From: an archaeon
Lineage (GTDB): Archaea; Iainarchaeota; Iainarchaeia; Iainarchaeales; CSSED10-239
Direction: 5' to 3'
NCBI GenBank assembly: GCA_035390665.1
Contig: DAOOUC010000002.1
Span: 90,001-122,000 of the forward strand
Length of the DNA stretch: 32,000 nucleotides
Each line of letters starts with the position of its first letter. Position 1 is the stretch's first letter. This document shows positions 7,142 through 24,893 of this stretch, piece by piece. A program made the position numbers and the translations under genes. The notes below the pieces were generated by a model. It made no database searches. It was not told where the DNA came from and worked only from the letters and a program-made list of their open reading frames with translations.

Positions 7142-7972
7142 ATGAGCTTATTTATGAATAAAAATATTTTAGTCTTAATCTCGGTATTATTAATGTCTAG
7201 TTATATTTATGCATCAAATATTACAGTTTCTTTTCCAGAAAATATAACTTTAGTAAATAATCCTGTTTCTGTAGAACTTTATGTTTATAATGGTTCTAAT
7301 TCTTCAGAATTAATAACTTTAACCTCTTATATTTCTCCTTTTCCAAGCTCTTTTTCAGAAAATCAATTTAGACTATCACCAAATGAATCCAAAAGAGTAA
7401 CAGTTACAATTTCTCCATTAAATGATTATTTAGAGTCAGTATATAGTTCAAGTATAGAAATAAAATCAGCTAATTATTATAATAAACAAACATTTAATAT
7501 TATTCAAAAAACCAATAGAATATGTTCTATTGATTTACAGTATTTTGTAATGTATGTTCCTTCTTCTGAGGAATATAAATTAGAATTAATACTAAAGAAT
7601 AATTCTATAGTAAATAAAGATATAGAAATTATTGGTTTAAAAGACATTAATCTTTCAGATGAGATAGGAATTGTTGAAATATCAGGCAAAACAGAGGTTT
7701 CTACAGTAAGATTGTTTAAAACAGAAGAAAGAAATGTAATTTTAGAATATAGATGTAATGGCTTATTTGGCAAAAAAGAAATAGAATTACCTGAGAAAAA
7801 GACCCCAATAGATATTAAAACAGGATTTACTGGTTTATTTTCATTCATTGGTTCTGTAAATCTAGGTAATTTCTGGGATTCTTTATTATTTCAAATAATT
7901 TTAATAATTATTTTAATTATTCTAGTCTTGTCTTTTTCAACAAGATACATAAAATATATTTATAAGAGATGA
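7142..7972 (+). CDS. Secreted/membrane-anchored surface protein with Ig-like (CARDB/NEW3-like) beta-sandwich repeats
   Basis: The N-terminus is signal-peptide-like (NKNILVLISVLLMSSYIYA). Segments of the V-x-L/V-x-V/L-x-N-x-S type are present and there are many N-x-S/T sequons. The C-terminus reads KTGFTGLFSF, then the TM helix LLFQIILIIILIILVLSF, then a basic tail. Confidence 0.6.
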   Translation: MSLFMNKNILVLISVLLMSSYIYASNITVSFPENITLVNNPVSVELYVYNGSNSSELITLTSYISPFPSSFSENQFRLSPNESKRVTVTISPLNDYLESVYSSSIEIKSANYYNKQTFNIIQKTNRICSIDLQYFVMYVPSSEEYKLELILKNNSIVNKDIEIIGLKDINLSDEIGIVEISGKTEVSTVRLFKTEERNVILEYRCNGLFGKKEIELPEKKTPIDIKTGFTGLFSFIGSVNLGNFWDSLLFQIILIIILIILVLSFSTRYIKYIYKR

Positions 7973-9840
7973 TTTATATGCAAAAAAAAATAATTGATTA
8001 TCAAGATAAAAATACAAAGCAAGCTAATAATAAATTAAGATATTTATTAGTGGGTTTTTTCATTTTATTGGTTTCCGTATTTAGTGTAAGATATATTTTT
8101 GCTTCAGATATTGAATTAGAATTTGATAAGCAAACATATTCTGTAATGGAAGGATCAAGCACAAAAATTGGGTTTACAATCTACAATAATTCTGAATCAA
8201 AATTAAATCTTTTATTGTGGGCAGATTGTGATGATGAGGATGAAGAACTAAGTTGTAATTATTCTCAAAGAATAATAATGCATGGAAACTCAACTCAAAC
8301 AAGTTCTTTTTATGTTACAGGAAGAGAAGATTCATCAACAGATCTTACAATTTATGTAAATGAGTTAGATTCAGATAAAATAAATGAATATTCAGTAGAT
8401 ATAGATGTTATTGATGATGAAGAAGACGGAGAATTTGAAATAGAAGTATATAATTCAAGTATTTGTATTGGAAAAACTAACAAAATGACATTTGAAATAA
8501 ACAATAATGCAAGTGATGGATTATATAATTTATTTTTAACAAGTGATAGATTAGAAATAAATTCAGAATATTCTAATCCTGTTTATTTAAGAAATGAAAA
8601 AGAAATAGATTATTATGTTTTTGTTCCAGAAAACACAGAAGAAGGACAAGTTTTTAATTTAAGATATACTATAGAAGATAATGAGATTTTAGAAACAAAA
8701 TCAATATCAGTATATGCTAGAAATTGTCCAGATACTTTTGTTGATTTTAGTGTAACTGGTCCAACAACTATCTCTTATAATATAAATAAAAATGAAGAAA
8801 AGGTTGTAAACTATACAATAAAAAACAATTCAAATAGCAATAAAACAATATATATTTCAGAAGAACATACAGAAGATAAAATAGAAGTAAATATTTCTCA
8901 AAGAACAATTGTTTTATCTCCAAATGCTTCAAAGACAATAGATGTAAAGATTAAAACAACAGAAGACATTAAATCTGGAAGCTATGATTTAAGTTTAAAT
9001 TTCTTTGATGGGATAAACAATATTAATAAAAAAGTAAAATTACTTGTTAACCCAGAACATAGTATTGAAGTAGAAACATTAAATGGTATAAGTCAGACAT
9101 TAATAATTGGTCAAAATTTAGAGTTGCTTTTAATTATAAAAAACAAAGGAGATATAAGAGATGAGTTTACAGTAACTACTACGGTTGATAATGATGTAAA
9201 AGTAAGAACAACAGAAAATAGCTTTTCTGTTTATCAAAATAGCACTGTTCCTTTCTCAATGGTTTTATCTTCAGGAAGTAGAACACAAACAGGATATGCC
9301 TATTTAAATGTAAAAATTCAAGGAAAAGATAGTGATTTCTATAAAGAAGTTAATTACATTATTAATGTAATAAGAGACACACCAGTTGCTGGATTAGAAA
9401 TATTATCTTATCCAAGAGAAATAAATGTTGTCCCAGAAAGCAATCAAGAAGTGGATTTTATTTTGAAAAATATTACTAATTCAAAAGTAATAATTGATTA
9501 TATAGAATTAACAGATGCCTCTCAAGAGATAACAATAATTGCCCCAAGAGATTCAGTTATAGAACCACAAAATACAAAGACTATAAAAGTAAAGTTTGAT
9601 ATAGGCGACATAAAAGAAAATCAAAATGCAAAAATAAGATTTGTTACAAGAAATGGGGGAATTTTAGAAAGACAAATTAAATTCAATATAGATGATGGGC
9701 AAGAATTAGATTCAGATAGTAAATCAGGAATAACAGGATTTTTGTCTTTAAAAAATTCTATATTTACTGGCATAATTGTAGTATGTTTAGCAATAATCCT
9801 ATTATTTGTATTAGGAATATTTAAGACAAAAAAAATTTAG
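7969..9840 (+). CDS. Large membrane-anchored surface protein with about 5-6 Ig-like (CARDB/NEW3-like) repeats
   Basis: An ATGA overlap with the upstream gene implies coupling. There is an N-terminal TM/signal anchor (LRYLLVGFFILLVSVFSV). Strand motifs repeat (FTIYNNSES, FEINNNASD, YTIKNNSNS, LLIIKNKGD, FILKNITNS). The C-terminus reads SGITGFLSL, then the TM helix IIVVCLAIILLFVLGIF, then KTKKI. Confidence 0.6.
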   Translation: MIYMQKKIIDYQDKNTKQANNKLRYLLVGFFILLVSVFSVRYIFASDIELEFDKQTYSVMEGSSTKIGFTIYNNSESKLNLLLWADCDDEDEELSCNYSQRIIMHGNSTQTSSFYVTGREDSSTDLTIYVNELDSDKINEYSVDIDVIDDEEDGEFEIEVYNSSICIGKTNKMTFEINNNASDGLYNLFLTSDRLEINSEYSNPVYLRNEKEIDYYVFVPENTEEGQVFNLRYTIEDNEILETKSISVYARNCPDTFVDFSVTGPTTISYNINKNEEKVVNYTIKNNSNSNKTIYISEEHTEDKIEVNISQRTIVLSPNASKTIDVKIKTTEDIKSGSYDLSLNFFDGINNINKKVKLLVNPEHSIEVETLNGISQTLIIGQNLELLLIIKNKGDIRDEFTVTTTVDNDVKVRTTENSFSVYQNSTVPFSMVLSSGSRTQTGYAYLNVKIQGKDSDFYKEVNYIINVIRDTPVAGLEILSYPREINVVPESNQEVDFILKNITNSKVIIDYIELTDASQEITIIAPRDSVIEPQNTKTIKVKFDIGDIKENQNAKIRFVTRNGGILERQIKFNIDDGQELDSDSKSGITGFLSLKNSIFTGIIVVCLAIILLFVLGIFKTKKI

Positions 9841-11420
9841 ATAAGTGATTTTTGTCTTTCTTCCATTTCTTTAATTTTATTTTCCATTAAATTAAAGGTG
9901 TTGTTTATTTTTTCTATATTTTTGTCAATAATTGCAATAAATTGATCTCTAAACATATTTAGTTCTGTGATTTTTTCTTTAGCAATATCTATTGTAGTTT
10001 GTAATTGTTCAATTCTTTTAATTTCATCATCTACTGTTTTTATTTTTCCTTTTATTTCTTGAGTAATTGCGCTTTCGTAAATTTTTAGAGATTGTGAGAT
10101 TTTTTCATCAACGGCATTAATTAATTGAGATTCAAATCCTTCAAGTTCTTTTAATTTTCTATTAATAATTTCAGGATCGGTTTTAGCAACAATAGTGTCT
10201 TTTACTTTGTTTATTTCTAATAGTTCTTTTGCAATTTCATCTTTGAATGCTTCTCTAGCTTTAGTTAAAAATTCGTTCTTTACAGCATCAAATCTTAGTT
10301 CATATCTATTTGCTAATTGTTGTTTAAATGATTCTAATTGATTTAATTTATCATAAAGTTGTTGTGGATTTATTTGTTTATTTATTCCTTCTTTAAATTC
10401 ATTTAGTTTTTTAATTTCTTCAATTACTGCTGTTTGTGTATTCTTTATTAATCCTTGTGTGATTTTAGATTGTAAAGCAAGTATATCATTTATCTCTTTT
10501 ATTTTTGCATTTAATTTTACTGTGGTTGTTGCTACAATTTTATTTACATTTTCTTGATTTAGTTTAGTGGTCTCGGTTATTTGATTTTGGAATTCTTGGA
10601 ATTTAATCAAAAGTGCTTCTATTTCTTGTTTGCTATTGTTTATGTCTTCTGCTTTTTTGTTTATTTTCGCTTGCTCTACTTTTAATTGTGCAAGTTGTTT
10701 TGTTAATTGAGTAGAAATGCCACTTACTTGTTCAGCTACTTGTTCATTTATTTTACCCATTAATAATTGTTTTGTAGTTTCTTGGATTTTTTTGTATTTT
10801 TCTATTTCTAAATCAATTTTAGATTTTAAATATTCTTCCATTTTTGTTTGTCTAATTTCAACTTCATTGATTTTTGTATTAATTGTTGTAACAAGTCCTG
10901 TTTGCCAAACATCTGCAGTGTTATTAGTTGTTTCAATCTTAGAATATTCTGGTTCTTTTTTCTTTGTTGTTTGAGGGGTTGGTGTGTAGGTATTAAAATC
11001 ATCAAAAGACACTGTATCTTTATCGCTAGAATAGTCTAATCCACTAATATCTAAGCCTTTAGTAATATCAGGTATATCTTTAGTTTCATCTTTTGTTTCT
11101 GGAATTTCAGGAACTGTTAATTTAGCAATTTCTGTTTCTTCTGAAAATAAATTATCAGGTATTTCACTTTTGTTAAAAATAGTTTTTGGTTCTTCCGTAA
11201 TCTTAGTTGTCGTCACTTTAGAATCTGTACTTTTTATGTCGTTAACTTTTAATTCAGTAACAGAAGATGTTTTTGTTTCTTCAAAGGCATTACTAATTAA
11301 ATCATCACAATCTTTAGCTGAAAGTCCCATCTTTAATAAATTATCTTTAATGTCTTCTTTAGACATTCCTAAATCTTTTAATTTTTTTATATTTTCTATA
11401 ATTCTTGGATCTGGAATCAT
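9837..11420 (-). CDS. Protein with UBA-like N-terminal domain, Thr/Glu/Lys-rich linker and ~330-aa coiled coil; function unknown
   Basis: The N-terminus IENIKKLKDLGMSKEDIKDNLLKMGLSAKDCDDLISNA has the shape of a three-helix UBA/TS-N domain. A low-complexity linker follows, then heptad-rich sequence with repeated P-x-x-L/I-x-x-K-L-x-x-L-E-x-F-x-x-Q-L units. The start overlaps the adk stop (ATGA). Confidence 0.6.
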   Translation of the reverse strand: MIPDPRIIENIKKLKDLGMSKEDIKDNLLKMGLSAKDCDDLISNAFEETKTSSVTELKVNDIKSTDSKVTTTKITEEPKTIFNKSEIPDNLFSEETEIAKLTVPEIPETKDETKDIPDITKGLDISGLDYSSDKDTVSFDDFNTYTPTPQTTKKKEPEYSKIETTNNTADVWQTGLVTTINTKINEVEIRQTKMEEYLKSKIDLEIEKYKKIQETTKQLLMGKINEQVAEQVSGISTQLTKQLAQLKVEQAKINKKAEDINNSKQEIEALLIKFQEFQNQITETTKLNQENVNKIVATTTVKLNAKIKEINDILALQSKITQGLIKNTQTAVIEEIKKLNEFKEGINKQINPQQLYDKLNQLESFKQQLANRYELRFDAVKNEFLTKAREAFKDEIAKELLEINKVKDTIVAKTDPEIINRKLKELEGFESQLINAVDEKISQSLKIYESAITQEIKGKIKTVDDEIKRIEQLQTTIDIAKEKITELNMFRDQFIAIIDKNIEKINNTFNLMENKIKEMEERQKSLI

Positions 11421-16585: not shown

Positions 16586-17200
16586 ATGGTTTGGTTAAAT
16601 TTTCTTGAGTCTATTGATTTTTTAAAAAAAAATAATATTAAAGTTTTGGATTATAAGATTATTGATTCAAAAGAAAAACTAGAATATTATAAAGATTTTC
16701 CATATGTCTTAAAACTAAGTTCCAATCTTTTACATAAAACTGAAGAAAAAGCAGTAATCACAGATATTTATTCAAAGGAGTCTTTGTTTTCTGCATATAA
16801 TCACCTTTCTTCAATTTTAGAAAAACATAAAATCAAAGGGAAAATAATTCTTCAAAAACAAGTAAAAGGTTTAGAATTAATTATTGGAATTAACAAAGAT
16901 GAACAGTTTGGAAAAGTCATTTTATTTGGTCAAGGCGGAATATACACTGAAGTTTTAGATGATACAAGTATAAGAATACTTCCAATAGAAAAGAAAGAAA
17001 TACAAGAAATGATATTTTCAACAAGGGTAAGTAAATTATTTTTTGCAAGAGGAGTAATTTATGATACAAAAGAATTAATTGATTTGATTGAAAATATTTC
17101 TAAAATTTCAACTAAGGTTTTAGAATTAGATTTAAATCCTGTAATTCTAACAAAAGAAGGATTATACATTGTTGATGCAAGAGTTAAGCTAGAGGAATAG
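16586..17200 (+). CDS. Stand-alone ATP-grasp domain protein resembling the beta subunit of ADP-forming acetyl-CoA synthetase (AcdB-like)
   Basis: PYVLKLSS...HKTEEKAV, ILQKQVKGLELIIGINKDEQFGKVILFGQGGIYTEVLDDTSIRILP and LELDLNPV match the ATP-grasp_5 pattern. ATG 16586 is preferred over the TTG at 16574 used by the track. Confidence 0.6.
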   Translation: MVWLNFLESIDFLKKNNIKVLDYKIIDSKEKLEYYKDFPYVLKLSSNLLHKTEEKAVITDIYSKESLFSAYNHLSSILEKHKIKGKIILQKQVKGLELIIGINKDEQFGKVILFGQGGIYTEVLDDTSIRILPIEKKEIQEMIFSTRVSKLFFARGVIYDTKELIDLIENISKISTKVLELDLNPVILTKEGLYIVDARVKLEE

Positions 17201-17205
17201 ACACT

Positions 17206-18141
17206 ATGTCATATAATTTAGATTTAAACACAAGTTTTCGTAAAAGAAAGCAATCTCCTAAGAGATACTGGCAATTTGTTTCTAAAAATAATCTTTTGGG
17301 AACAGCAATAACCGAAGATGCGAAATTAAATCCAAAAAAAGCATATTTTGATTTGTATGCTGTTAAACCTAAAGGCAAAATATTAATTCCAGGAGTAACA
17401 ATATCAACAGATTCTGGAGATGTTGTTGTCTATGCCCCATTTGAAGAAATTTATGATTATGGGGTAATCTATGAAGATAATGTATCCATAAAAAGAATAT
17501 ATGATCTTTGTGAAAGAAAGGGGTATCTAATGTCAATAGCTCACCCATTTGGACTAATAAATAATTCTGCAAGTTATATGATGGGGTTATCAAAACTTGA
17601 AAAATTTATTAAAGAAAAAAATGTAGGGGTGGAAGCATATAATGGAAGAATTGGATATCTTTCTTATTATATGTATGATTCTTATTTTTTAAAAACAATT
17701 AGGGATTTTTTATGGTATATTCAAGCACACAAAACATTCAAGTTACTTGGGTTATCTAAATTTGCAAATAAATTAAATCACAAAATAGATCAAAAAAGTT
17801 ATGACATGGTATATAAATTTGCAGCAACAATAAAGTTATCTCAATCAGCTAATTTTATAACAGCCGGTTCTGGAACAGATTATGTTGATAGAATAGGGAG
17901 CGGTGTTGTTACCATAGATTTACCAAAATCTTTTTTTGAGGAAACAAATATTTCTCAAAACCAAATACTACTTAACAAGATTTCAAAAAAAGAAATAATC
18001 TCTTTTGGACCACCAGGAAAATATACTGATGAATTGTTTGAGAGATCAACAGCAAGAATAACCAAATTAAAAGCATATGATGATTTAGTATATCTTACAA
18101 AAACAGCTTTTAAGATTGAAAAAAAAGAAAAAAAGAAGTAA
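17206..18141 (+). CDS. PHP-domain-like protein with most metal-ligand histidines substituted
   Basis: The order of conserved blocks follows PHP phosphoesterases: FDLYAV (vs DLHxH), IPGVTISTDSGDVVVY (vs G-x-E-i-s...H), SIAHPFG, VGVEAYNGR, GSGTDYVDRIGSG (vs SDAH...G). The assignment was made by eye only. Confidence 0.4.
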   Translation: MSYNLDLNTSFRKRKQSPKRYWQFVSKNNLLGTAITEDAKLNPKKAYFDLYAVKPKGKILIPGVTISTDSGDVVVYAPFEEIYDYGVIYEDNVSIKRIYDLCERKGYLMSIAHPFGLINNSASYMMGLSKLEKFIKEKNVGVEAYNGRIGYLSYYMYDSYFLKTIRDFLWYIQAHKTFKLLGLSKFANKLNHKIDQKSYDMVYKFAATIKLSQSANFITAGSGTDYVDRIGSGVVTIDLPKSFFEETNISQNQILLNKISKKEIISFGPPGKYTDELFERSTARITKLKAYDDLVYLTKTAFKIEKKEKKK

Positions 18142-18142
18142 T

Positions 18143-18874
18143 ATGTTTTTTATTTATCCAATGGTGTTTTTAACAATAATTTGTTTATTTTATCTAGTCT
18201 ATGAAGATTTAAGAACAAGAGAAATAAATACTATTCCTATTTATATATTATCAGGTATTGGTTTAATTTATAATTTATATTTTGGATTTTTATATAATTT
18301 CTGGAAATTATATATTTTACAATTATTAATTGTTTTAATATTTTTAATAATAATTTATTTATTAGGCAAAATAACTATTTATGCATATATTGGAGAAGGA
18401 GATTTGTTAACAATAATGATGATTTCTTTTACTAGCGGATATTCTGTTTTATTTTCTGAATTTGTATTTTTACTGGCTCTTTTCTTTATGTTATTTATTC
18501 CATTGATTTTCTTAGTATATAATTTATTAAAAAAGAACTATCCATCAAAAAAAATAAATAATAGATTTTCTTTAATGTTTTTAGGATTTCCGGTTTCTGT
18601 TTCAAAACTAAATAATTTCTTTACTCCGTTAGAGGAATATAAATTGAAAGACGGAAAAATCGAAAATAGTATTTTAATTAAACCTAATTGTGATTCTGAA
18701 ATCCAAATACAAAAGATAAAGGAAATAGCAATACAATATAATATAAAAAAAATATGGGCCTCTCCATTAATTCCATTTGTCTGGCCAATATTTATTGCTT
18801 ATCTTTTATTATTATTTTTCTTAATTTTAAGCAAATTGAATTTCTTTGGATTTTTTGCAACTCTATTTATTTAG
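18143..18874 (+). CDS. A24-family prepilin/preflagellin peptidase (FlaK/PibD-like aspartyl protease)
   Basis: Polytopic membrane protein. The first catalytic Asp context is LVYEDLRTREINTIP and the second is the G-x-G-D motif in AYIGEGDLLTIMMISF. ATG 18143 is preferred. The track start 18116 encodes KKKKKRSN and overlaps the upstream gene. Confidence 0.75.
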   Translation: MFFIYPMVFLTIICLFYLVYEDLRTREINTIPIYILSGIGLIYNLYFGFLYNFWKLYILQLLIVLIFLIIIYLLGKITIYAYIGEGDLLTIMMISFTSGYSVLFSEFVFLLALFFMLFIPLIFLVYNLLKKNYPSKKINNRFSLMFLGFPVSVSKLNNFFTPLEEYKLKDGKIENSILIKPNCDSEIQIQKIKEIAIQYNIKKIWASPLIPFVWPIFIAYLLLLFFLILSKLNFFGFFATLFI

Positions 18875-18947
18875 TTATTTCAGAACAAATATATATTTAT
18901 AAACATAATGTACTTATTATTTGCTATAATATATTTAAGTAATAAAT

Positions 18948-21314
18948 ATGGTTGAATTAAAAAAATTAAAACAGATTAAAGATAATCATATAAAAGAAAA
19001 TCAGCATCCTAAATACACCCCGCAAGAGTTGTCTAACTATGAGCATAAACAAATTACTTTAAAAAAAATTAAAACTCGTGGAGAATCTAATTACATTCCA
19101 CCAAAATCTGCAATTGTTGAAGAAAAAAAACCAAATTCTATTAATTCTAAAATCCCTGTTGAGGATTTACAAAATAGAATGATTGAAGAAAATTTATTAT
19201 TTCAAATAGAGAAAAAAAAGTTAGAAATTATTTCTGATGACCTTAAAGATAATAATATTTCTAAAGATTATAATTTGATAGATGTATCTGATTCAAATAT
19301 TGATGATTTGCTTGAGAATCTAAATAAGCAAACTACAAATATAGATGAAGATAAACCGTTTTTAGAATCTATATCTTTTTTGGATGATGTTCCAAAAATA
19401 AATAAAATTGCGATTCCAAATTTAGATGTTTCTAACCTATATGCGAAAATAGATGAAATAGAAAAAAAAAGAGAACAATCAAAAGTAATCCAGACAGAAT
19501 ATCTAAATCAGAATAATCTTAAGAATCCACTACAAAATAATAACAAAGAAAAAAAAATAGACATTGTTCCATTAATTGAAAAAATTGAAATTCCAGAAAT
19601 TATGACTTTAGATGATGATACAAAAATTACAGAATCAATAAAGAATGATTTTATAAGTTTAGAAAAAAAGGCAGTTACAGAAAAAATAAAAGAATCTAAT
19701 TTTGTAAATTCTAATAAAGAATTGAAACAAAATCCAGAAATAGAGAATAGAATAAAAGATATAAAGATAAAAGCAGATAACATTAAAATATCTACGCCTG
19801 TAGAATATAAAAAAGAAAATACAAAAATAAAAGAATTAGAAAAAGTAAATTATATTTTACCTAAAGATTATTTAACTAATAAAGGGCCTGTAGCTTATGA
19901 TGCAATAAAAAATAAGCAAAAAATTAATTTAATTTATGATTCAGAAGTTAAATCCAAATCCATAAATAAATCTGAAATTAATGAAAAATACAATATAGAT
20001 GAATTTACATTTGTTAATATTAATTATAAAGAAAACAGCCTTTTTTATAATATAATCCAACCAGAATTAACAAAGACACAAGAGGAAACACTTTCTGAAG
20101 TAAAAAGGGCGTTTCTAGATTCTATTGATGCAAATTATTATTCTTTTAAAGGAGATAAACAAGGGATTCAAAGTTATATAAAAAAGATATTTGATTTGAC
20201 TTTAGAAAAATTATCCTTTGATTTAACAAGCTTAGAAAAGAAACAATATTTTAATTTCATAAAACAAGAATTTTCTGGATTGGGATTTTTAGCAAGTATA
20301 TTAGAGGATAAAAATATAATTGAGGTAAATTGTGGAGGAGTAGGATTACCAATTATGGTTTATCATACTAAATATGGGTTAATTCAAACTAATTTAAAAT
20401 TTGAAAAAATGTCTCAATTAAATTTATTTGTATTATCTTTAACTAAAGTTATGGGATTAAGGGTAAATTCTTCTCAACCATTAATTAATGGCTATCTCCC
20501 AAATGGATATAAAGTTGAAGGATTATATTCTGTAGGAGATACAAGTAATAAAGGATCATCCTTTATAATTAAGAAATATTTAGAAGAACCATTAACCCCA
20601 AATCAATTAATAAATTTAGGTATAGGTACAATAGATGTCTTTTCATATATTTGGTGTGCAATAGATCAAAATTATCAGGTCGCAATTACAGGTGGAGATT
20701 CTGTACTTTTGATTAATTCTATTGTTCAATTATATCCTAATAAAAAGATTGCAAGTGTTCAATCTTATGATTATTTTAAATTCCCACAAAAAAATTGGAT
20801 AAAAAGAATGATACATAATGAGACGGCACTAGATAAGAAAACATTATTATCTCAAACACTTTCTGAAAGGCCAGATTATATTATTGTGGATGATTTTACT
20901 AAAGAATTATTTGATACAAAATGGTATGATTATAGTTTAATTTATGCTGATTCAAATATTATTGGAGAATATATAGAGAAGGTTAAATCTATAGGCACAA
21001 ATACAATCATCATTTATTTAGATAGAATAAAATCTCGCGATTTTGAACAAACACAAATATTAAAAATAATAGAAATAGATAAAGGAAAAGAACAAAAAAT
21101 CATAGAATTTAACATTGATGATGGGAGTTATCATTTTAACTTAGTGCCTTCTAATATTAATATTGTTGATTTTTTAAAAAAGCAGAAATTACTTAGATGG
21201 ATATCAGACACAGATATATCTGATTATTTAGATTTTAATAATCTAATTAATGATTATTATTTAGATTCTAAAAAATTATTTAACAAATTAAATATAATAG
21301 AAAAAGAGCAATAG
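18948..21314 (+). CDS. FlaI/PilB/GspE-family (T2SSE) secretion NTPase homolog with eroded nucleotide-binding motifs and a ~340-aa low-complexity N-terminal extension
   Basis: FlaI-type N-domain blocks are conserved (YNIIQPELTKTQEETL, IIEVNCGG...MVYHTKYGLIQTNLKF, PLINGYLPNGYKVEGLY, SSFIIKKY). The core aligns to the ATPase domain, but Walker A reads ITGGDSVLLINS, Walker B reads RPDYIIVDDFTKE, and no GKT/GKS occurs anywhere. Confidence 0.8.
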   Translation: MVELKKLKQIKDNHIKENQHPKYTPQELSNYEHKQITLKKIKTRGESNYIPPKSAIVEEKKPNSINSKIPVEDLQNRMIEENLLFQIEKKKLEIISDDLKDNNISKDYNLIDVSDSNIDDLLENLNKQTTNIDEDKPFLESISFLDDVPKINKIAIPNLDVSNLYAKIDEIEKKREQSKVIQTEYLNQNNLKNPLQNNNKEKKIDIVPLIEKIEIPEIMTLDDDTKITESIKNDFISLEKKAVTEKIKESNFVNSNKELKQNPEIENRIKDIKIKADNIKISTPVEYKKENTKIKELEKVNYILPKDYLTNKGPVAYDAIKNKQKINLIYDSEVKSKSINKSEINEKYNIDEFTFVNINYKENSLFYNIIQPELTKTQEETLSEVKRAFLDSIDANYYSFKGDKQGIQSYIKKIFDLTLEKLSFDLTSLEKKQYFNFIKQEFSGLGFLASILEDKNIIEVNCGGVGLPIMVYHTKYGLIQTNLKFEKMSQLNLFVLSLTKVMGLRVNSSQPLINGYLPNGYKVEGLYSVGDTSNKGSSFIIKKYLEEPLTPNQLINLGIGTIDVFSYIWCAIDQNYQVAITGGDSVLLINSIVQLYPNKKIASVQSYDYFKFPQKNWIKRMIHNETALDKKTLLSQTLSERPDYIIVDDFTKELFDTKWYDYSLIYADSNIIGEYIEKVKSIGTNTIIIYLDRIKSRDFEQTQILKIIEIDKGKEQKIIEFNIDDGSYHFNLVPSNINIVDFLKKQKLLRWISDTDISDYLDFNNLINDYYLDSKKLFNKLNIIEKEQ

Positions 21315-21316
21315 AT

Positions 21317-22159
21317 ATGTTTGGAAAATTTTTTACAAAGATTTCTGAATTCTTCTTTTCAGAGATATCTAAACTTATTGTTCCGAAATTTAAAGAATTA
21401 TCTAAAACTCTTTCATTTACTGATATTGAAGAAGATGCTCAAACATATCTTTCAAATATATTGTTTTTATCTTTCCTTATAGGAATAATCTTAGAATTTT
21501 TAATGATTTTTGTAATGCTTAAATTAAATATATTATTTAATATTTTTACTTTTGTCTTAACAATAATAATTGCCTTTACCTTTGCAGGGTTAATTTTTAT
21601 TATATTATATAATTATCCAAAATTTATTTTATTATCTAATAAAAAAAAGATAGAAGAAGAATTAGAAACAAGCATAAAGCATCTTTCTGTTTTACAGGAT
21701 AAGAATTTAACTGTGAAAGATGTACTTTACTTATTACAAAAAATAGATAATAACAAAATACTTACTGTAGAATCAAAAAGAATATTATCTATGTCTGATT
21801 TAAATAAAAATCTTAAAGAAACATTAAAATATATGTGTGATAATACCTATTCTGAACAAGAATATAGCTTCTTATCTAAATTAATAGAAGTCTTGGATGG
21901 GAAATACAAATTGGATCAAGTAATAAATGAATATTTTTTGTCTACGGAGCAAACAAGAAAAGAAAAAGAAGAACATCAAAGAAGTAGAATTACCTTGTTA
22001 TTTGAAATAAATATTTTTTTGTTCTTTTTAATCTTTGTTTTAATCTTTAGTGTTTTCTTAATGCCTATATATAGAAATTCAATAAAAGAGATTTTATTTG
22101 CTATTGCAATTATTTTTCCAATTATTGAATTAATTTTAATAATAATATTAAGTAAGTGA
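21317..22159 (+). CDS. Single-T2SSF-domain membrane protein (FlaJ/TadB-like platform subunit)
   Basis: N-terminal TM helices are followed by a ~110-aa soluble helical domain (EELETSIKHLSVL...LKETLKYM...LSKLIEVLDG) and then C-terminal TM helices. This is the T2SSF topology. The gene starts 2 nt after the NTPase homolog. Confidence 0.6.
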   Translation: MFGKFFTKISEFFFSEISKLIVPKFKELSKTLSFTDIEEDAQTYLSNILFLSFLIGIILEFLMIFVMLKLNILFNIFTFVLTIIIAFTFAGLIFIILYNYPKFILLSNKKKIEEELETSIKHLSVLQDKNLTVKDVLYLLQKIDNNKILTVESKRILSMSDLNKNLKETLKYMCDNTYSEQEYSFLSKLIEVLDGKYKLDQVINEYFLSTEQTRKEKEEHQRSRITLLFEINIFLFFLIFVLIFSVFLMPIYRNSIKEILFAIAIIFPIIELILIIILSK

Positions 22160-22166
22160 AAAATTA

Positions 22167-23297
22167 ATGAGTGTAAATAAAACCACAAATAAAGAAATTA
22201 ATTTGTTTTTCTATAATCATGAATATACCATCTTAAATATTGCAGGAATAATTTGTGGTCTTATTATTTTATGGATTGCAAATAACTTTTTTGTTGATAG
22301 TAAGATATATTATCTGATATTTATTTTTGGATTGTTAGTTGGGGGATTTGGTTTTGTTATAGAATATTATATAAAAAATGAAAAACGTAAGTCTTTAGAA
22401 ACAGAATTTAGTTATTTTTTATATGATTTATCTAAGGAATATAAAAAAACAAACAATTTATCTTTAGCATTAACAAATATATCTGAATATAATTTTTATG
22501 GAGACATAAATACAGATATAAAAAGATTAGCAAATAGAGTATCTTGGGGAGATTCTTTTGAGGATGCATTAGAGTCAATAAATAAAAACATAAATAGTTC
22601 TGTTATTATTCACACACTTGTATTACTTAGAGCATTAAAGAAATCATCGGTCTCTTATGATATAATTTTAAAGAATATATCCAAGGATCTTAAAATATTT
22701 AAAAGTGAAGATCGTTCAAAAAAGTATTTTTCAAATTTATTTTATTTGTCTTTGGTTTTTTATTTTGTATTTATTTTTGTTTTATTATATATTGACCACA
22801 TTATTGGTGGAAATTTTCTGTGGAGTAGTAATGCAGAAGTAGTTACAAGAATATTCTTTGATAATTTTATGCTTTATTTGGCATTGCTTTTAGGGGTTTT
22901 TACTGCTTACGTTATGTATTCTATAAAAAAAGACAAAGGCATAAATTTTGTTAAATATATTCTATTAATGTTTATAATAACCGTTATCTTATTTCAAATC
23001 TTTGCACCAAAACCAGAGGCTGAAAGAATTTTAATAGATACAATAGAATATATGATCAAAAATAATGAAACAAAAGTAGAAATAGATAATGCAATTGCAT
23101 TAAAGACAATAAGTTCTAAATACATTTCTGAAAAAGTAGAGACCGAAACTATATATTTTCAACAGGTTGATAATTTAAGTTGTTTCTCTGAAGAATGTAA
23201 AGAGTTTACTATCTTTGTTAATGAGCCAGCATTCTATGATTTTATTATCGAGAAACAAGAAAATAATCATTTTATTATATATTATAAAAAAGTTTAA
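22167..23297 (+). CDS. Single-T2SSF-domain membrane protein (FlaJ/TadC-like) with an extra ~100-aa C-terminal domain
   Basis: Two TM helices are followed by a soluble helical domain (ETEFSYFLYDLSKE...IKRLANRVSWGDSFEDALESI...LVLLRALKKS), further TM helices, and a C-terminal domain containing CFSEEC. Confidence 0.6.
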   Translation: MSVNKTTNKEINLFFYNHEYTILNIAGIICGLIILWIANNFFVDSKIYYLIFIFGLLVGGFGFVIEYYIKNEKRKSLETEFSYFLYDLSKEYKKTNNLSLALTNISEYNFYGDINTDIKRLANRVSWGDSFEDALESINKNINSSVIIHTLVLLRALKKSSVSYDIILKNISKDLKIFKSEDRSKKYFSNLFYLSLVFYFVFIFVLLYIDHIIGGNFLWSSNAEVVTRIFFDNFMLYLALLLGVFTAYVMYSIKKDKGINFVKYILLMFIITVILFQIFAPKPEAERILIDTIEYMIKNNETKVEIDNAIALKTISSKYISEKVETETIYFQQVDNLSCFSEECKEFTIFVNEPAFYDFIIEKQENNHFIIYYKKV

Positions 23298-23309
23298 TAA
23301 GAAAAAGAT

Positions 23310-23675
23310 ATGATAAAAAACATTACAAAGAAAAAATTAATAATTAGTGATTATAAGATTGCAAATACTGTTTTTTCTAGAGGATTAGGGTTAATGTTTT
23401 CCAGAAAATCAAAATTTAATTATGGATTAATATTTGACTTAGAAAGAGAAACAGTTATTGGAGCAAGTTTGCATATGTTTTTTGTATTTTATCCAATAAA
23501 TGTAATATTTTTGAATTCAAAAAAACAAATTGTGGATATCAAAACCGATTTTAGGCCATTTACATTTTATTCTACAAATAAGAAATGCAGGTATATTATT
23601 GAATTACCTAAAAAGATTGGATTAAGATATTATTCTTTAAATGATAGAATTTCTTGGAAAAACATCAAAAATTGA
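23310..23675 (+). CDS. DUF192-family protein
   Basis: ANTVFSRGLGLMF...GLIF...SLHMFFVFYPINVIFLNSKKQIVDI...YIIELP follows the DUF192 (COG1430) pattern (GLM, then MxF, then D/N-V-I-F-L). Confidence 0.7.
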   Translation: MIKNITKKKLIISDYKIANTVFSRGLGLMFSRKSKFNYGLIFDLERETVIGASLHMFFVFYPINVIFLNSKKQIVDIKTDFRPFTFYSTNKKCRYIIELPKKIGLRYYSLNDRISWKNIKN

Positions 23676-23865
23676 TGATTTTCTTGTGTTTTTATTATGT
23701 AGACTTTGAAAATCAAACTGATTTCTAATTGTTGGTTTAAATTAACTACCAGTAACCATATATAAAGATTTTAGGACTATAACATATACAGTAATCTATT
23801 ACCTAGATTTCCACAAAAGAATAAAAGGCAGAAAAGAGGAAGAGAAGAAACATACTGTTTAACAG

Positions 23866-23891
23866 GAACAGGTCCCTGTTCTTTTCTTCTT
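23866..23891 (+). terminator. Hairpin GAACAG-GTCC-CTGTTC followed by TTTTCTTCTT
   Basis: Read directly, with the stem at 23866-23871 / 23876-23881. It is nested inside a second possible stem AGAAGAAA (23843-23850) / TTTCTTCT (23883-23890). Confidence 0.35.
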
Positions 23892-23962
23892 AGAAATTAA
23901 TTACATTTGTGGCTTAATTGCCCCAAAACCTTTTCCTTCCCCAAAAGAAGAGGTAAACTAAG

Positions 23963-23993
23963 GAGCCCAAATGGGCTCAAGTTCTATTTTTAT
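23963..23993 (+). terminator. Hairpin GAGCCC-AAAT-GGGCTC followed by a T-rich run
   Basis: Inverted repeat at 23963-23969 / 23972-23978, with TCTATTTTTATT downstream. The stem also sequesters an AAGGAG (23960-23965) and an ATG (23971). Confidence 0.35.
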
Positions 23994-24122: not shown

Positions 24123-24893
24123 ATGGGATTAAGACCAGGACATTGTTATTGTCAAAATGTTAAAAAAAGAGCATATTCAAGAATTGCAGTTAAAGTTCAT
24201 AAAAAGAACTTTATTGGTGGTGTACCAGGATTAAAGATAAGACAGTTTCACATGGGTAATGGGAATAGAGCATATACGCATGTAATTCATTTTACTACAA
24301 AAAACAAGGTACAGATTAGAGACAATGCAATTGAAGCAGTAAGACAAAGTGTTGTAAGACAGTTAAACAAGAAATTAACGGCAGTAAACTATTATATGAA
24401 AGTAAGAGTTTATCCTCAATTTTTCTTAAGAGAAAACAAACAAGCACAAGGGGCACACGCAGATAGAATTCAAACAGGAATGAGTCAATGTCCTTTTGGA
24501 AAAGTTGTTGGTAGAGCTTCAAGAGTAAGAGCAGGACAGAAAATATATAGTGTCTTAGTTGATGAAGCAAATGTTAAATTTGTTAAGGAACTTTTCGAAA
24601 GAATGGGTTCAAAGTTCCCTACAGAAATGAAAGTTATTGTTGAAAAGAATACAGATAATTTAAAGTCTGTTGGAACAGTAAGAAAGAAAAGAAAGATGAA
24701 GGAAGAAGAAGAAACAAAAGCCGCAACAACAGAAGCAGCACCAGCAGCAGGTAAAGATGCAAAAGCAGCAGCTCCTGCAAAGGGCGCAGCTCCAGCTAAA
24801 GGTGCAGCACCTGCAAAAGGCGCAGCTCCCGCAGGTAAAGATGCAAAAGCAGCAGCTCCAGCAAAGGGCGCAGCTCCAGCAAAGAAGAAATAA
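24123..24893 (+). CDS. rpl10e: Ribosomal protein uL16 (L10e) with ~80-aa Lys/Ala/Pro/Gly-rich C-terminal extension
   Basis: MGLRPGHCYC...GGVPGLKIRQFHMG...VRVYPQFFLRENKQAQGAHADRIQTGMSQCPFGKVVGRASRV is unmistakably L10e. The conserved core ends near residue 176. The tail is KKRKMKEEEE...AAPAKGAAPAKGAAPAKGAAPAGKDAKAAAPAKGAAPAKKK. AGGTGA lies 7 nt upstream. Confidence 0.92.
   Translation: MGLRPGHCYCQNVKKRAYSRIAVKVHKKNFIGGVPGLKIRQFHMGNGNRAYTHVIHFTTKNKVQIRDNAIEAVRQSVVRQLNKKLTAVNYYMKVRVYPQFFLRENKQAQGAHADRIQTGMSQCPFGKVVGRASRVRAGQKIYSVLVDEANVKFVKELFERMGSKFPTEMKVIVEKNTDNLKSVGTVRKKRKMKEEEETKAATTEAAPAAGKDAKAAAPAKGAAPAKGAAPAKGAAPAGKDAKAAAPAKGAAPAKKK
24747..24880. repeat. Near-perfect 50-nt direct duplication with 84-nt period, containing 18-nt (AAPAKG) sub-repeats, inside the L10e tail
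   Basis: GCAGGTAAAGATGCAAAAGCAGCAGCTCC[T/A]GCAAAGGGCGCAGCTCCAGC occurs at 24747-24796 and again at 24831-24880 with one difference. The segment is GC-rich within an AT-rich window. Confidence 0.8.

What the first reader, a model, noticed from the sequence alone, without database searches (positions are those of the whole stretch)
16586..23675. Type IV pilus/archaellum-like assembly cassette with no recognisable pilin and two unusual upstream passengers
Seven same-strand genes are separated by only 5, 1, 73, 2, 7 and 12 nt. In order they are an AcdB-like ATP-grasp, a PHP-like protein, an A24 prepilin peptidase with both Asp motifs intact, a FlaI/PilB-family protein, two single-T2SSF-domain membrane proteins (a TadB/TadC-style split of FlaJ, the second with an extra Cys-containing C-terminal domain), and DUF192. 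I see no ORF in the 32 kb with a class III signal peptide (short basic N-terminus, G/A cleavage site, hydrophobic helix). I also see no FlaH, FlaF/G or FlaCDE. A peptidase plus platform plus hexameric-NTPase-family set in a probable episymbiont is a natural candidate for an attachment or exchange filament. This particular composition, with DUF192 and the ATP-grasp/PHP-like pair, is not a described archetype as far as I know.
Basis: partly seen in the sequence, partly recalled or inferred. Interest (0 to 1): 0.75.

Follow-up and report, generated by a model that had tools for sequence, protein, structure and literature searches.

The report
Pilus-type gene block with dead ATPase
A small DPANN archaeon (Iainarchaeota) carries a conserved pilus-assembly-like gene block whose "motor" protein keeps its shape but has lost every ATP-burning motif, so the block probably acts as a scaffold for surface adhesins rather than as a self-powered pilus machine.

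Summary
The seven genes, their spacing and their family assignments are real. The window comes from an AT-rich DPANN archaeon of the Iainarchaeota/Diapherotrites.

The conserved unit is genes 3-6, with gene 7 added in this clade. It consists of an A24 prepilin peptidase with both Asp intact, a FlaI/GspE2-fold protein, two TadB/TadC-like T2SSF proteins, and DUF192. The ATP-grasp and PHP-fold genes are only neighbours.

The 788-aa "FlaI/PilB" protein lacks Walker A, the Asp box, the Walker B Glu and the His box. All 33 homologues aligned or scanned lack them too, as does a distant relative at 29% identity. The fold is kept (AF2 pLDDT 87; Foldseek E 1e-32 to GspE2) and selection is purifying (dN/dS 0.15).

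Genomes of this clade also carry an intact ferredoxin-fused T2SSE ATPase with its own two T2SSF genes. I could not show this for the window's own genome.

The window holds no pilin. Two giant proteins with class-III-like signal peptides lie 4-9 kb upstream on the same contig, and pilin-like genes follow DUF192 directly in relatives.

Pilins encoded in trans and split TadC genes are ordinary in archaea. The conserved dead ATPase is the novelty. Verdict: a new variant of a known kind, of moderate to high interest.

The parts
16586..17200 (+). Gene 1: stand-alone ATP-grasp_5 protein of 204 aa, like the beta subunit of ADP-forming acyl-CoA synthetase. It is a conserved neighbour, not part of the core.
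   Evidence: PF13549 E 2.9e-40. NCBIfam acetate-CoA ligase scores 104 bits against a cut-off of 1200, so only the domain matches. Absent from L011, L014, L015 and L016, and not next to the block in L008.
17206..18141 (+). Gene 2: clade-restricted PHP-fold protein of 311 aa with degenerate metal-binding motifs. It is a conserved neighbour, not part of the core.
   Evidence: No Pfam hit. 49 homologues, all >=55% identical and all 'hypothetical'. AF2 pLDDT 81.5. Foldseek finds the RNase AM PHP domain 7ug9 at E 8e-5, plus Pol III alpha PHP and TrpH-like folds. Motif I is DLNTS in the window; His is kept at position 8 in 22/43 and at position 10 in 28/43. The terminal GSDAH motif is GSG[TS]x in 41/43, and no member has Asp at the motif's Asp position. 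Separated from gene 3 by an opposite-strand gene in L019.
18143..18874 (+). Gene 3: A24 prepilin/preflagellin peptidase of the FlaK/PibD type (243 aa), apparently catalytically intact.
   Evidence: PF06847 E 5.8e-10. PF01478 scores 26.1 bits (cut-off 26.5). NCBIfam FlaK E 1.2e-10. FlaK 3s0x E 0.013. D22 and GEGD(84-87) are invariant in 15 orthologues.
18948..19934 (+). Gene 4, N-terminal extension (residues 1-329). It is rich in K, I, N and E, poorly conserved overall, and carries short conserved motifs such as ISFLDDxPKIxKI, VSNLYAKID, IEIPEI and FDYILPKD.
   Evidence: Alignments A1/A2. Mean pairwise identity 0.34 against 0.64 for the next domain. Composition K 16%, I 13%, N 11%, E 10%. dN/dS 0.22. 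The length varies from 772 to 1209 aa among orthologues, with 45-nt tandem repeats in Forterrea.
19935..21314 (+). Gene 4, core (residues 330-788). It has the two-domain FlaI/GspE2 fold plus a PilB3_C-like tail, but no catalytic motif. I read it as a pseudo-ATPase.
   Evidence: AF2 pLDDT 87, pTM 0.86. Foldseek: 2oap E 1e-32 (TM 0.69 for the second 2oap chain, E 2e-32), FlaI 4ii7/4ihq about 1e-30, CpaF 1e-19. No PF00437 hit. dN/dS 0.085 for the N-domain and 0.163 for the degenerate P-loop domain.
20682..20720 (+). Remnant of the Walker A site (residues 579-591, AITGGDSVLLINS). It aligns to GETASGKTTTLNA of GspE2 with a 3-residue deletion and no Lys or Thr.
   Evidence: phmmer alignment to 2oap and 4ii7. 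Across the family G582 is invariant and D584 is present in 17/18, with no GK[ST] anywhere.
20874..20900 (+). Remnant of the Walker B site (residues 643-651, DYIIVDDFT, against DYIIVGEVR). The position of the catalytic Glu varies (N/E/D/Q/T/S/H). The Asp box upstream reads SVQSYDYF against SIEDTREI, and the His box is deleted.
21317..22159 (+). Gene 5: TadB/TadC-like platform protein of 280 aa with a single T2SSF domain. It has two hydrophobic blocks, which I read as about 4 TM helices, flanking a 115-aa cytoplasmic domain.
   Evidence: PF00482 28.7 bits. NCBIfam ArlJ/FlaJ E 5.8e-11 over the first half of that model. Hydropathy. Conserved in 14 loci.
22167..23297 (+). Gene 6: second TadB/TadC-like platform protein of 376 aa, read as about 5 TM helices. 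It ends in a 92-aa acidic C-terminal domain (residues 285-376, nt 23019-23294) with a conserved Cys pair. By TM count this domain would lie outside the cell.
   Evidence: T2SSF at 23.3 bits in the window, and 13/13 orthologues hit T2SSF (best E 2e-8). C339 and C344 conserved at >=90%. Hydropathy and charge. A CxxC is also kept in the distant L056 homologue.
23310..23675 (+). Gene 7: DUF192 (COG1430) protein of 121 aa with no signal peptide. It follows the platform genes throughout this clade.
   Evidence: PF02643 E 5.6e-13. NCBIfam PRK03760 E 4.8e-27, 94.2 bits, below its cut-off of 146. It moves with genes 3-6 in L008 and stays next to gene 4 where genes 5/6 are missing. It is absent from the distant L056 locus.

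Best explanation
The core of this region (genes 3-6, plus DUF192 in this clade) is a membrane module derived from a type IV filament system, in an Iainarchaeota (DPANN) archaeon.

Shown:
- The A24 peptidase has both catalytic Asp.
- There are two single-domain TadB/TadC-like platform proteins.
- The 788-aa protein keeps the complete FlaI/GspE2 two-domain fold and the PilB3_C-like tail.
- It has lost Walker A, the Asp box, the Walker B Glu and the His box.
- The loss is shared by the whole family and is old. The gene is under purifying selection.

Inferred mechanism:
- Gene 4 is a catalytically inert scaffold. It still docks on the cytoplasmic domains of its two platform proteins. Its long, variable N-terminal extension offers further binding motifs.
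- The peptidase matures proteins with class III signal peptides. These are the giant DUF2341/LamG and CHB_HEX_C adhesin-pilins encoded nearby.
- The inert base complex anchors or nucleates these proteins at the membrane.
- The energy for any polymerisation comes in trans from a second, intact module encoded elsewhere in genomes of this clade. That module has a ferredoxin-fused T2SSE ATPase, two small T2SSF proteins and a DedA protein, and has no peptidase gene beside it.

The ATP-grasp and PHP-fold genes are syntenic neighbours, not components.
For: Dead motifs:
- Alignment to 2oap and 4ii7.
- Family alignments with the intact Micrarchaeota protein P0034 as reference and column counts.
- None of the 33 homologues has a PF00437 hit.

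Fold kept.

Discrete, old clade:
- An exhaustive HMM search gives a gap from >=695 bits for full-length members of the clade to <=244 bits for the intact PilB3_C-type ATPases. The two scores in between (373 and 275 bits) are truncated members of the same clade.
- A distant dead homologue, P0289, sits in the same order A24 - dead ATPase - T2SSF - T2SSF at 25-29% identity.

Selection: dN/dS is 0.146 overall and 0.163 in the degenerate P-loop domain. The N-domain and C-terminal tail are the best-conserved parts.

Block behaviour:
- Genes 3-7 move together in L008.
- Genes 2-7 keep their order in 8 of the 14 loci that cover the block.

Link to an intact system:
- In L008 the cassette is followed directly by an intact Fer4-T2SSE (PF00437 E 1.7e-34), a 245-aa protein with a sub-threshold T2SSF match, a 271-aa membrane protein and a DedA-like protein.
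- The dead and intact genes share contig JAQVTI010000004.1, about 18 kb apart.
- Contig-length matches place both in the Forterrea complete genome, on the 813-kb contig of the P0022 species, and on contigs of 65.6 kb and 63.4 kb. The 368-kb contig carries the gene 2 homologue and the intact ATPase.
- No A24 gene lies within 4-10 kb of the intact module in 5 loci.
- In the P0022 species the dead ATPase is intact on 24 contigs. In the four places shown, genes 5/6 are missing from the locus. It must therefore act with something not encoded beside it.

Substrates:
- Class-III-like N-termini occur on two giant DUF2341/LamG proteins upstream on the window's contig.
- They occur on genes directly after DUF192 in five relatives.
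- They occur on LamG proteins flanking the intact module.
Against: - No intact ATPase was found for the window's own genome. I found one only in the same metagenome sample (Ga0116241_10000770), and tetranucleotide and GC comparison does not tie that contig to the window.
- The intact module also exists in lineages without the dead cassette, such as AR10 and Micrarchaeota. It therefore does not need the cassette.
- No physical interaction was tested or is testable here.
- Class III signal peptides were called by pattern. The only Pfam support is weak: DUF7289 E 3.5e-4 and Pilin_N E 3.4e-3.
- The role of DUF192 is unknown, and it is absent from the distant L056 locus.
- A residual ability to bind nucleotide cannot be excluded from sequence.
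Confidence: 0.45

Rival explanations
1. ATP-independent display system, similar to the bindosome. The peptidase cleaves class-III-signal adhesins. The inert gene 4 / gene 5 / gene 6 complex only organises them in the membrane as short stubs or single anchored adhesins. No ATPase takes part, and the intact Fer4-ATPase module is a separate pilus system.
For: - All catalytic motifs are lost, yet the module is conserved.
- The nearby substrates are very large multidomain adhesins (831 and 1113 aa with DUF2341/LamG; 358-502 aa with CHB_HEX_C) rather than small major pilins.
- The intact module occurs without the cassette in other lineages.
Against: - The Sulfolobus bindosome system uses an active ATPase (BasE). 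No type IV-like assembly without ATP is known (my own knowledge).
- The adjacency in L008 and the shared peptidase suggest the two modules are coupled.
- Loss of genes 5/6 with gene 4 retained in the P0022 species is hard to fit with a self-contained complex.
Confidence: 0.2
2. Regulator or brake. The dead FlaI-like protein competes with the active ATPase for platform or pilin binding, or forms mixed rings with it. This would switch assembly off, stabilise assembled filaments or set their number. The cassette would then be a control module, not a structural one.
For: - The interaction surfaces (N-domain, C-terminal tail) are conserved while catalysis is lost.
- Gene 4 persists without its own platform genes in one species.
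- It always co-occurs with an intact ATPase where long contigs exist.
Against: - Gene 4 and the Fer4-ATPase are only about 24% identical (P0034-type relatives), so mixed hexamers are doubtful.
- A pure regulator would not need its own two platform proteins, which are conserved even in the distant L056 locus.
Confidence: 0.15
3. This is a complete, self-sufficient type IV pilus or archaellum-like assembly cassette, whose NTPase drives an attachment or exchange filament and whose pilins lie elsewhere.
For: - Peptidase, platform and a FlaI/PilB-fold protein are all present and conserved.
- Pilins in trans are normal in archaea (PMC4858521).
Against: - The P-loop has a 3-residue deletion and no Lys or Thr. 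The Asp box, Walker B Glu and His box are gone in every member.
- There is no PF00437 hit.
- No FlaH, FlaF/G or archaellins are present.
Confidence: 0.07
4. A decaying remnant of a pilus operon with no current function. It would be retained only because the region is collinear among close relatives.
For: - The whole neighbourhood (TrkH, TrkA, NMD3, aCPSF on one side; L10e, methyltransferase, NDK on the other) is collinear in most loci.
- Genes 5/6 have been lost in one species.
- The PHP-like neighbour is also degenerate.
Against: - The ORFs are full-length in 33 homologues at 43-99% identity and in a 29%-identical distant homologue.
- dN/dS is 0.15.
- There are 97 invariant residues among 18 sequences.
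- The block survives rearrangement intact in L008.
Confidence: 0.04

Closest known systems
Archaeal type IV pilus ATPase/TadC modules of the PilB3-PilC3 / A. fulgidus GspE2 type (euryarchaeal adhesion pili; Makarova, Koonin & Albers 2016, PMC4858521)
   Same: - Same fold for gene 4, including the PilB3_C-like tail.
- One or two TadC-like platform genes next to it.
- An A24 peptidase.
- Pilins often encoded in trans, and paralogous ATPase/TadC operons in one genome.
   Different: - Every catalytic motif of the ATPase is lost.
- It carries an N-terminal extension of about 330 aa.
- DUF192 is attached to the module.
- Gene 6 has an extracellular Cys-pair domain.
- The family forms a discrete clade restricted to Iainarchaeota-like DPANN.
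Bacterial Tad/Flp pilus system (TadA/CpaF, TadB, TadC, TadV, TadZ)
   Same: - The platform is split into two single-T2SSF proteins.
- The peptidase has no methyltransferase domain.
- CpaF is a structural match (8rkd, E 1.7e-19).
- Tad also has a non-hydrolysing NTPase-fold organiser, TadZ/CpaE (my own knowledge).
   Different: TadZ is a ParA/MinD-type protein, not a T2SSE paralogue, and TadA itself is active. Here the T2SSE homologue is the inert one. No Flp pilin, secretin or TadZ is present.
Archaellum motor (FlaI/ArlI, FlaH/ArlH, FlaJ/ArlJ, FlaK)
   Same: - FlaI is the second-best structural match (about 1e-30).
- FlaK-type peptidase.
- Gene 5 matches the first half of ArlJ.
- FlaH is a precedent for an NTPase-fold partner that does not act as the motor (my own knowledge).
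   Different: - No FlaH, FlaF/G, FlaX/CDE or archaellins in the window.
- FlaJ is split.
- FlaI's catalytic motifs are missing.
- FlaH is RecA/KaiC-like, not a FlaI paralogue.
Bindosome assembly system of Sulfolobales (BasE/BasF with class-III-signal binding proteins)
   Same: It is a type IV-like module that handles large non-pilin surface proteins carrying class III signal peptides (PMC4858521, and my own knowledge). This resembles the giant adhesins found near the cassette.
   Different: BasE is an active ATPase and the substrates are sugar-binding proteins. No sequence relationship beyond the superfamily level was tested.

Membership tests
Type IV filament superfamily assembly system (T4P/Tad-like) | PilB/GspE/FlaI-family hexameric ATPase with Walker A, Asp box, Walker B and His box | tested here: not met
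   The fold is present (Foldseek E 1e-32), but all four motifs are absent in the window protein and its whole family. No PF00437 hit.
Type IV filament superfamily assembly system (T4P/Tad-like) | Polytopic platform protein(s) with a T2SSF domain | tested here: met
   Gene 5 scores 28.7 bits (cut-off 25.2). Gene 6 scores 23.3 bits, but 13/13 orthologues hit PF00482, best E 2e-8.
Type IV filament superfamily assembly system (T4P/Tad-like) | A24 prepilin peptidase with two catalytic Asp | tested here: met
   PF06847 and PF01478. D22 and GEGD87 are invariant in 15 orthologues.
Type IV filament superfamily assembly system (T4P/Tad-like) | Substrates with a class III (prepilin) signal peptide | tested here: inconclusive
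   None in the window. Pattern-based candidates lie 4.2-9.4 kb upstream on the same contig (MNNKG|TSEIISQILLMLITVVV and MNNQKG|AANLITTMAYLLISFVII) and directly after DUF192 in 5 relatives. Pfam support is only weak.
Archaellum | FlaH, FlaF/FlaG, FlaX or FlaCDE, and archaellins next to FlaI/FlaJ | tested here: not met
   No such family among the 27 of the 39 window ORFs >=80 aa that were scanned. FlaI NCBIfam scores 120.9 bits against a cut-off of 550.
PHP phosphoesterase domain (gene 2) | PHP fold plus the metal-binding His/Asp/Glu motifs (N-terminal HxH, ..., C-terminal DxH) | tested here: not met
   The fold matches PHP domains. The window has DLNTS in place of DLHTH, and GSG[TS]x replaces GSDAH in 41/43. 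No Pfam hit and no PDB profile hit.
ADP-forming acyl-CoA synthetase (gene 1) | ATP-grasp beta part together with the CoA-binding/ligase alpha part | tested here: inconclusive
   Only the ATP-grasp_5 domain is present (E 3e-40). It scores 104 bits against an equivalog cut-off of 1200. There is no alpha subunit in the window, and the rest of the genome could not be searched.
DUF192 / COG1430 (gene 7) | Match to PF02643 above the gathering score | tested here: met
   49.3 bits against 27. PRK03760 E 4.8e-27, 94.2 bits, below its cut-off of 146. Function unknown; only a weak PDB match, 3pjy.
Anti-phage defence systems (PADLOC) | Any component model hit | tested here: not met
   No hit for any of the seven proteins.

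The most novel reading that the evidence does not exclude
Iainarchaeota build their surface filaments or adhesin anchors with a two-module machine. One module is a catalytically dead FlaI/PilB paralogue that has been kept for a long time, with its own platform pair, DUF192 and the cell's prepilin peptidase. The other is a redox-sensing, ferredoxin-fused active ATPase module. The dead ring would act as a stator or assembly hub, so that attachment to a host would be gated by the cell's redox or energy state. This would be the first pseudo-ATPase of the T2SSE family with a defined structural role.
Probability: 0.2. Interest if true: 0.8.

Novelty: new variant of a known kind. Interest (0 to 1): 0.62.

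Why it matters
All known type IV filament machines (pili, archaella, T2SS, Tad) are thought to need an active PilB/FlaI-type hexamer. A paralogue that has lost all catalytic motifs, yet is kept with its own platform proteins and the prepilin peptidase across a whole DPANN lineage, points to a non-motor role for this fold. That role could be as scaffold, stator or regulator. This question can be tested directly by biochemistry and co-folding.

It also bears on how ultra-small archaea with minimal genomes display the giant adhesins they probably use to contact other cells.

Finally, annotation pipelines label these proteins 'FlaI' or 'VirB11 ATPase'. Metabolic and lifestyle reconstructions of DPANN that count them as pilus motors may therefore be wrong.

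Tried and rejected
1. Finding the intact ATPase in the window's own genome.
- Look-ups of P0079 and P0046 led to other samples.
- Cluster listings carried no sample ids.
- P0080 lies in the same sample as a copy of the window (3300010429, Ga0116241_10000770). Tetranucleotide correlation (0.978, below that of loci from other species) and GC (24.6% against 26.4%) do not link it to the window. This remains unresolved.
- Walking along the contig is limited to proteins encoded in the window, so only 10 kb upstream could be read.

2. A profile search of PDB sequences with the gene 2 family gave no hit. Only the fold search was informative.

3. hhalign of the gene 5 family against the gene 6 family was not significant (probability 3%). 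I rely on Pfam hits for each family instead.

4. DUF192: 22 papers mention it and none concerns pili or archaea. The PDB match is weak.

5. Rfam search of the conserved intergenic element found nothing credible.

6. A defence-system origin was rejected.

7. An archaellum was rejected because no accessory genes are present.

8. Using gene spacing as evidence of an operon was rejected, because unrelated genes in this window are spaced just as tightly.

Full report
**Observation.** The ORF listing gives seven + strand ORFs at 16586-17200, 17206-18141, 18143-18874, 18948-21314, 21317-22159, 22167-23297 and 23310-23675.

Pfam and NCBIfam confirm most assignments:
- Gene 1: ATP-grasp_5, E 3e-40.
- Gene 3: Peptidase_A24 plus Arc_PepC_II.
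- Gene 5: T2SSF, 28.7 bits.
- Gene 6: a sub-threshold T2SSF hit at 23.3 bits.
- Gene 7: DUF192, 49.3 bits.
- Gene 2: no Pfam hit.
- Gene 4: no PF00437 (T2SSE) hit. It matches NCBIfam FlaI only in part (120.9 bits against a cut-off of 550).

The rest of the window encodes housekeeping proteins of an archaeon: NMD3, aCPSF, L10e, SMC, aminoacyl-tRNA synthetases and TrkAH. GC is 26%. Short same-strand gaps also separate unrelated genes here, so spacing alone says little about operons.

**Origin.** The same DNA occurs on JGI Ga0116153_10000498 (48.5 kb), Ga0116241_10000596 (80.8 kb) and ENA ERZ761563 NODE_118 (130.7 kb). A scan of species-representative genomes with the gene 4 family found 17 loci. 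All are from uncultured DPANN archaea labelled Iainarchaeum, 'ainarchaeum' or Diapherotrites, and they include the complete genome of Ca. Forterrea multitransposorum.

**What is conserved.** I searched the ORFs of those loci with the window proteins using phmmer.
- Genes 2-7 keep their order in 8 of the 14 loci that cover the block.
- The flanking housekeeping genes are collinear too, so gene order alone is weak evidence.

The informative cases are the exceptions:
- In L008 the block of genes 3-7 lies in a different place, after NDK and without genes 1 and 2.
- Gene 1 is missing in L011, L014, L015 and L016.
- In L010 a DHH-type gene lies between genes 1 and 2. L013 has a gap of similar size there, which I did not inspect.
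- In L019 an opposite-strand UPP-synthase gene lies between genes 2 and 3.
- A far more distant locus, L056 (GCA_043821385.1), has A24 - gene 4 homologue - T2SSF (287 aa) - T2SSF (377 aa, with a C-terminal CxxC) at only 25-29% identity. It lacks genes 1, 2 and 7.

The functional unit is therefore genes 3-6, with DUF192 joined to it in this clade. The ATP-grasp and PHP-like genes are neighbours.

**Gene 4 is a dead ATPase.** phmmer against PDB sequences aligns residues 344-651 with A. fulgidus GspE2 (2oap, E 7.5e-36) and S. acidocaldarius FlaI (E 6e-27). The catalytic sites compare as follows:

| Site | Active enzymes | Window protein |
|---|---|---|
| Walker A | GETASGKTTTLNA | ITG---GDSVLLINS |
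| Asp box | SIEDTREI | SVQSYDYF |
| Walker B | DYIIVGEVR | DYIIVDDFT |

- The alignment stops before the His box. In the family alignment, which includes an intact Micrarchaeota ATPase (P0034), the His-box region is an 8-residue deletion.
- None of the 18 aligned family members has a Lys/Thr P-loop. The position of the catalytic Glu varies (N/E/D/Q/T/S/H).
- None of the 33 homologues (43-99% identity) carries a precomputed PF00437 hit.
- An AF2 model of residues 330-788 is confident (pLDDT 87, pTM 0.86). It matches GspE2 (E 1e-32; TM 0.69 for the second 2oap chain), FlaI (about 1e-30) and CpaF over both domains.

The fold is kept and the chemistry is gone.

**Gene 4 is not a pseudogene.**
- All homologues are full-length.
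- 97 residues are invariant among 18 sequences.
- The N-domain (64% mean pairwise identity) and the PilB3_C-like tail are the best-conserved parts.
- For the closest pair (L006/L009), dN/dS is 0.146 overall and 0.163 in the degenerate P-loop domain.
- An exhaustive HMM search of 1.84 billion representatives shows a discrete clade of about 17 clusters at >=695 bits. Below it there is a gap to <=244 bits, apart from two truncated members of the clade at 373 and 275 bits. The proteins below the gap are intact archaeal ATPases with GGTxSGKTT and the same C-terminal domain.
- The only other clearly degenerate protein in the top 150 is the L056 homologue.

The first 329 residues form a K/I/N/E-rich extension of variable length with a few conserved short motifs. 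In Forterrea this extension contains 45-nt tandem repeats. That probably corresponds to the repeat-bearing 'secretion-related ATPase' mentioned in PMC5905446; this link is my inference.

**Other components.**
- Gene 3 has D22 and G-E-G-D87 invariant in 15 orthologues.
- Gene 6: all 13 orthologues hit T2SSF (best E 2e-8).
- Hydropathy shows two hydrophobic blocks in gene 5, which I read as about 4 TM helices. It shows four in gene 6, read as about 5 TM helices. This would put gene 6's acidic 92-aa C-terminal domain, with its conserved Cys pair, outside the cell. That placement is an inference.
- Gene 7 has no signal peptide or TM helix. Its function is unknown.
- Gene 2 belongs to a family of 49 proteins found only in this clade. 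Its AF2 model (pLDDT 81.5) matches PHP domains. The metal-binding motifs are eroded, however. The window has DLNTS where half of the relatives have DLHTH. In 41 of the 43 members GSG[TS]x replaces GSDAH, and none keeps the Asp.

**Pilins.** The window has none.
- Upstream on the same contig, 4.2-9.4 kb before window position 1, lie two adjacent genes. One encodes an 831-aa DUF2341/LamG protein and the other a 1113-aa DUF2341 protein. Their N-termini are MNNKG|TSEIISQILLMLITVVV and MNNQKG|AANLITTMAYLLISFVII.
- In L011, L012, L013, L015 and L016, one or two genes with KKS|ISAIISVVLLILVT-type N-termini follow DUF192 directly. Some are fused to CHB_HEX_C domains.

These are pattern-based calls with only weak Pfam support. 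According to PMC4858521, pilins encoded in trans, two TadC genes and paralogous ATPase/TadC operons are common in archaea. Those features of the finding are therefore ordinary.

**A second, intact system.** In L008 the cassette is followed immediately by four genes:
- a 596-aa ATPase with an N-terminal 4Fe-4S ferredoxin domain and complete motifs (GNTGSGKTT; PF00437 E 1.7e-34);
- a 245-aa protein with a sub-threshold T2SSF match;
- a 271-aa membrane protein;
- a DedA-like protein.

This module is widespread, with 4904 hits at E <= 1e-20 in the homologue search with the L008 ATPase. It keeps the same architecture in six loci. It co-occurs with the dead cassette in several ways:
- On JAQVTI010000004.1, about 18 kb apart.
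- By matching contig lengths: in Forterrea (839,632 bp), on the 813,239-bp contig of the P0022 species, and on contigs of 65,641 and 63,384 bp. The 368,344-bp contig carries the gene 2 homologue and the intact ATPase.

No A24 gene lies near the intact module in any locus I read. In L030 the module is flanked by five LamG proteins with Pilin_N-type N-termini.

In the P0022 species the dead ATPase occurs as the identical protein on 24 contigs. In the four places shown, genes 5/6 are absent and gene 4 is followed directly by DUF192.

I could not show the intact module in the window's own genome.

**Interpretation.** The first-stage reading of a type IV filament-like cassette is right in kind, but the cassette cannot be a self-powered assembly machine. 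The best-supported view, at 0.45 confidence, is this:
- The cassette is an inert base or scaffold module.
- It supplies the prepilin peptidase and a platform that is capped by a non-catalytic FlaI-fold ring.
- It acts on giant class-III-signal adhesins.
- It depends on the intact Fer4-ATPase module for any energy-requiring polymerisation.

The rivals are ATP-independent, bindosome-like display (0.2), a brake or regulator (0.15), a self-sufficient motor (0.07) and a decaying remnant (0.04).

I found no description of a conserved catalytically dead PilB/FlaI paralogue, or of this gene set, in the searchable literature. I class it as a new variant of a known kind.

Noticed in passing
window 23,765-23,985 (between DUF192 and L10e): This intergenic DNA is far better conserved across species than the flanking proteins, with long invariant runs in 7 loci. 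It has a TATA-like box, a long imperfect hairpin (GGCAGAAAAGAGGAAGA...GAACAGGTCCCTGTTCTTTTCTTCT), a second hairpin, and a variable stem followed by a T-run. I read it as a candidate non-coding RNA of about 200 nt. No Rfam family matches it.
   Followed up: partly
L026:2719-5214(-) and L026:1-2722(-), which is 4.2-9.4 kb upstream of window position 1 on the same contig: Two adjacent giant surface proteins, an 831-aa DUF2341/LamG protein and a 1113-aa DUF2341 protein, have class-III-like signal peptides (MNNKG|TSEIIS..., MNNQKG|AANLIT...). They are likely substrates of the A24 peptidase.
   Followed up: partly
L006, L057-L060 (the P0022 species, including the 813-kb contig Ga0116249_10000002): A natural variant of the cassette lacks both T2SSF genes. 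The dead ATPase, identical on 24 contigs, is followed directly by DUF192 in the five loci read (L006, L057-L060).
   Followed up: yes
L008:10080-13475; also L020, L022, L028, L030, L055: There is a widespread DPANN module made of an ATPase with an N-terminal 4Fe-4S ferredoxin domain fused to T2SSE, two small T2SSF-like proteins and a DedA/VTT protein. It usually lies next to the PRPP synthase and PCC genes. The ferredoxin fusion suggests redox control of a pilus ATPase.
   Followed up: partly
L055:4001-5731: This otherwise intact Fer4-T2SSE ATPase has the Walker A sequence VNTGSFKTT, with two Gly replaced by Val and Phe. It may be a sequencing or assembly error, or a second case of erosion.
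   Followed up: no
P0415: This archaeal T2SSE homologue has a long insertion starting with Cys directly after the Walker A Lys (GGTATGK|C...). It looks like an intein inside the P-loop.
   Followed up: no
window 24,123-24,893: Ribosomal protein L10e/uL16 carries an Ala/Lys/Pro-rich repeat tail of about 70 aa (AAPAKGAAPAKG...). This causes the local GC rise to 33%. A lysine- and alanine-rich tail is also present in Forterrea.
   Followed up: no
window 7,142-9,840 (+) and 9,837-11,420 (-): Two adjacent predicted surface proteins (276 and 623 aa) have an N-terminal signal or anchor, weak Ig-like domain hits in the 623-aa protein, and a C-terminal TM helix. A convergent 527-aa coiled-coil protein has no Pfam match. 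None has a class III signal peptide.
   Followed up: no
L016:9424-9681: The N-terminal extension of the Forterrea gene 4 orthologue (1116 aa) contains a 45-nt tandem repeat of 5.7 copies. This is probably the repeat region of the 'secretion-related ATPase' whose assembly was curated in PMC5905446.
   Followed up: partly
L019:7877-8560(-) and L056:6493-7197(-): A UPP synthase (cis-prenyltransferase) gene lies on the opposite strand directly upstream of the A24 peptidase gene. This occurs in two distant versions of the cassette, so it may be the ancestral neighbour.
   Followed up: no
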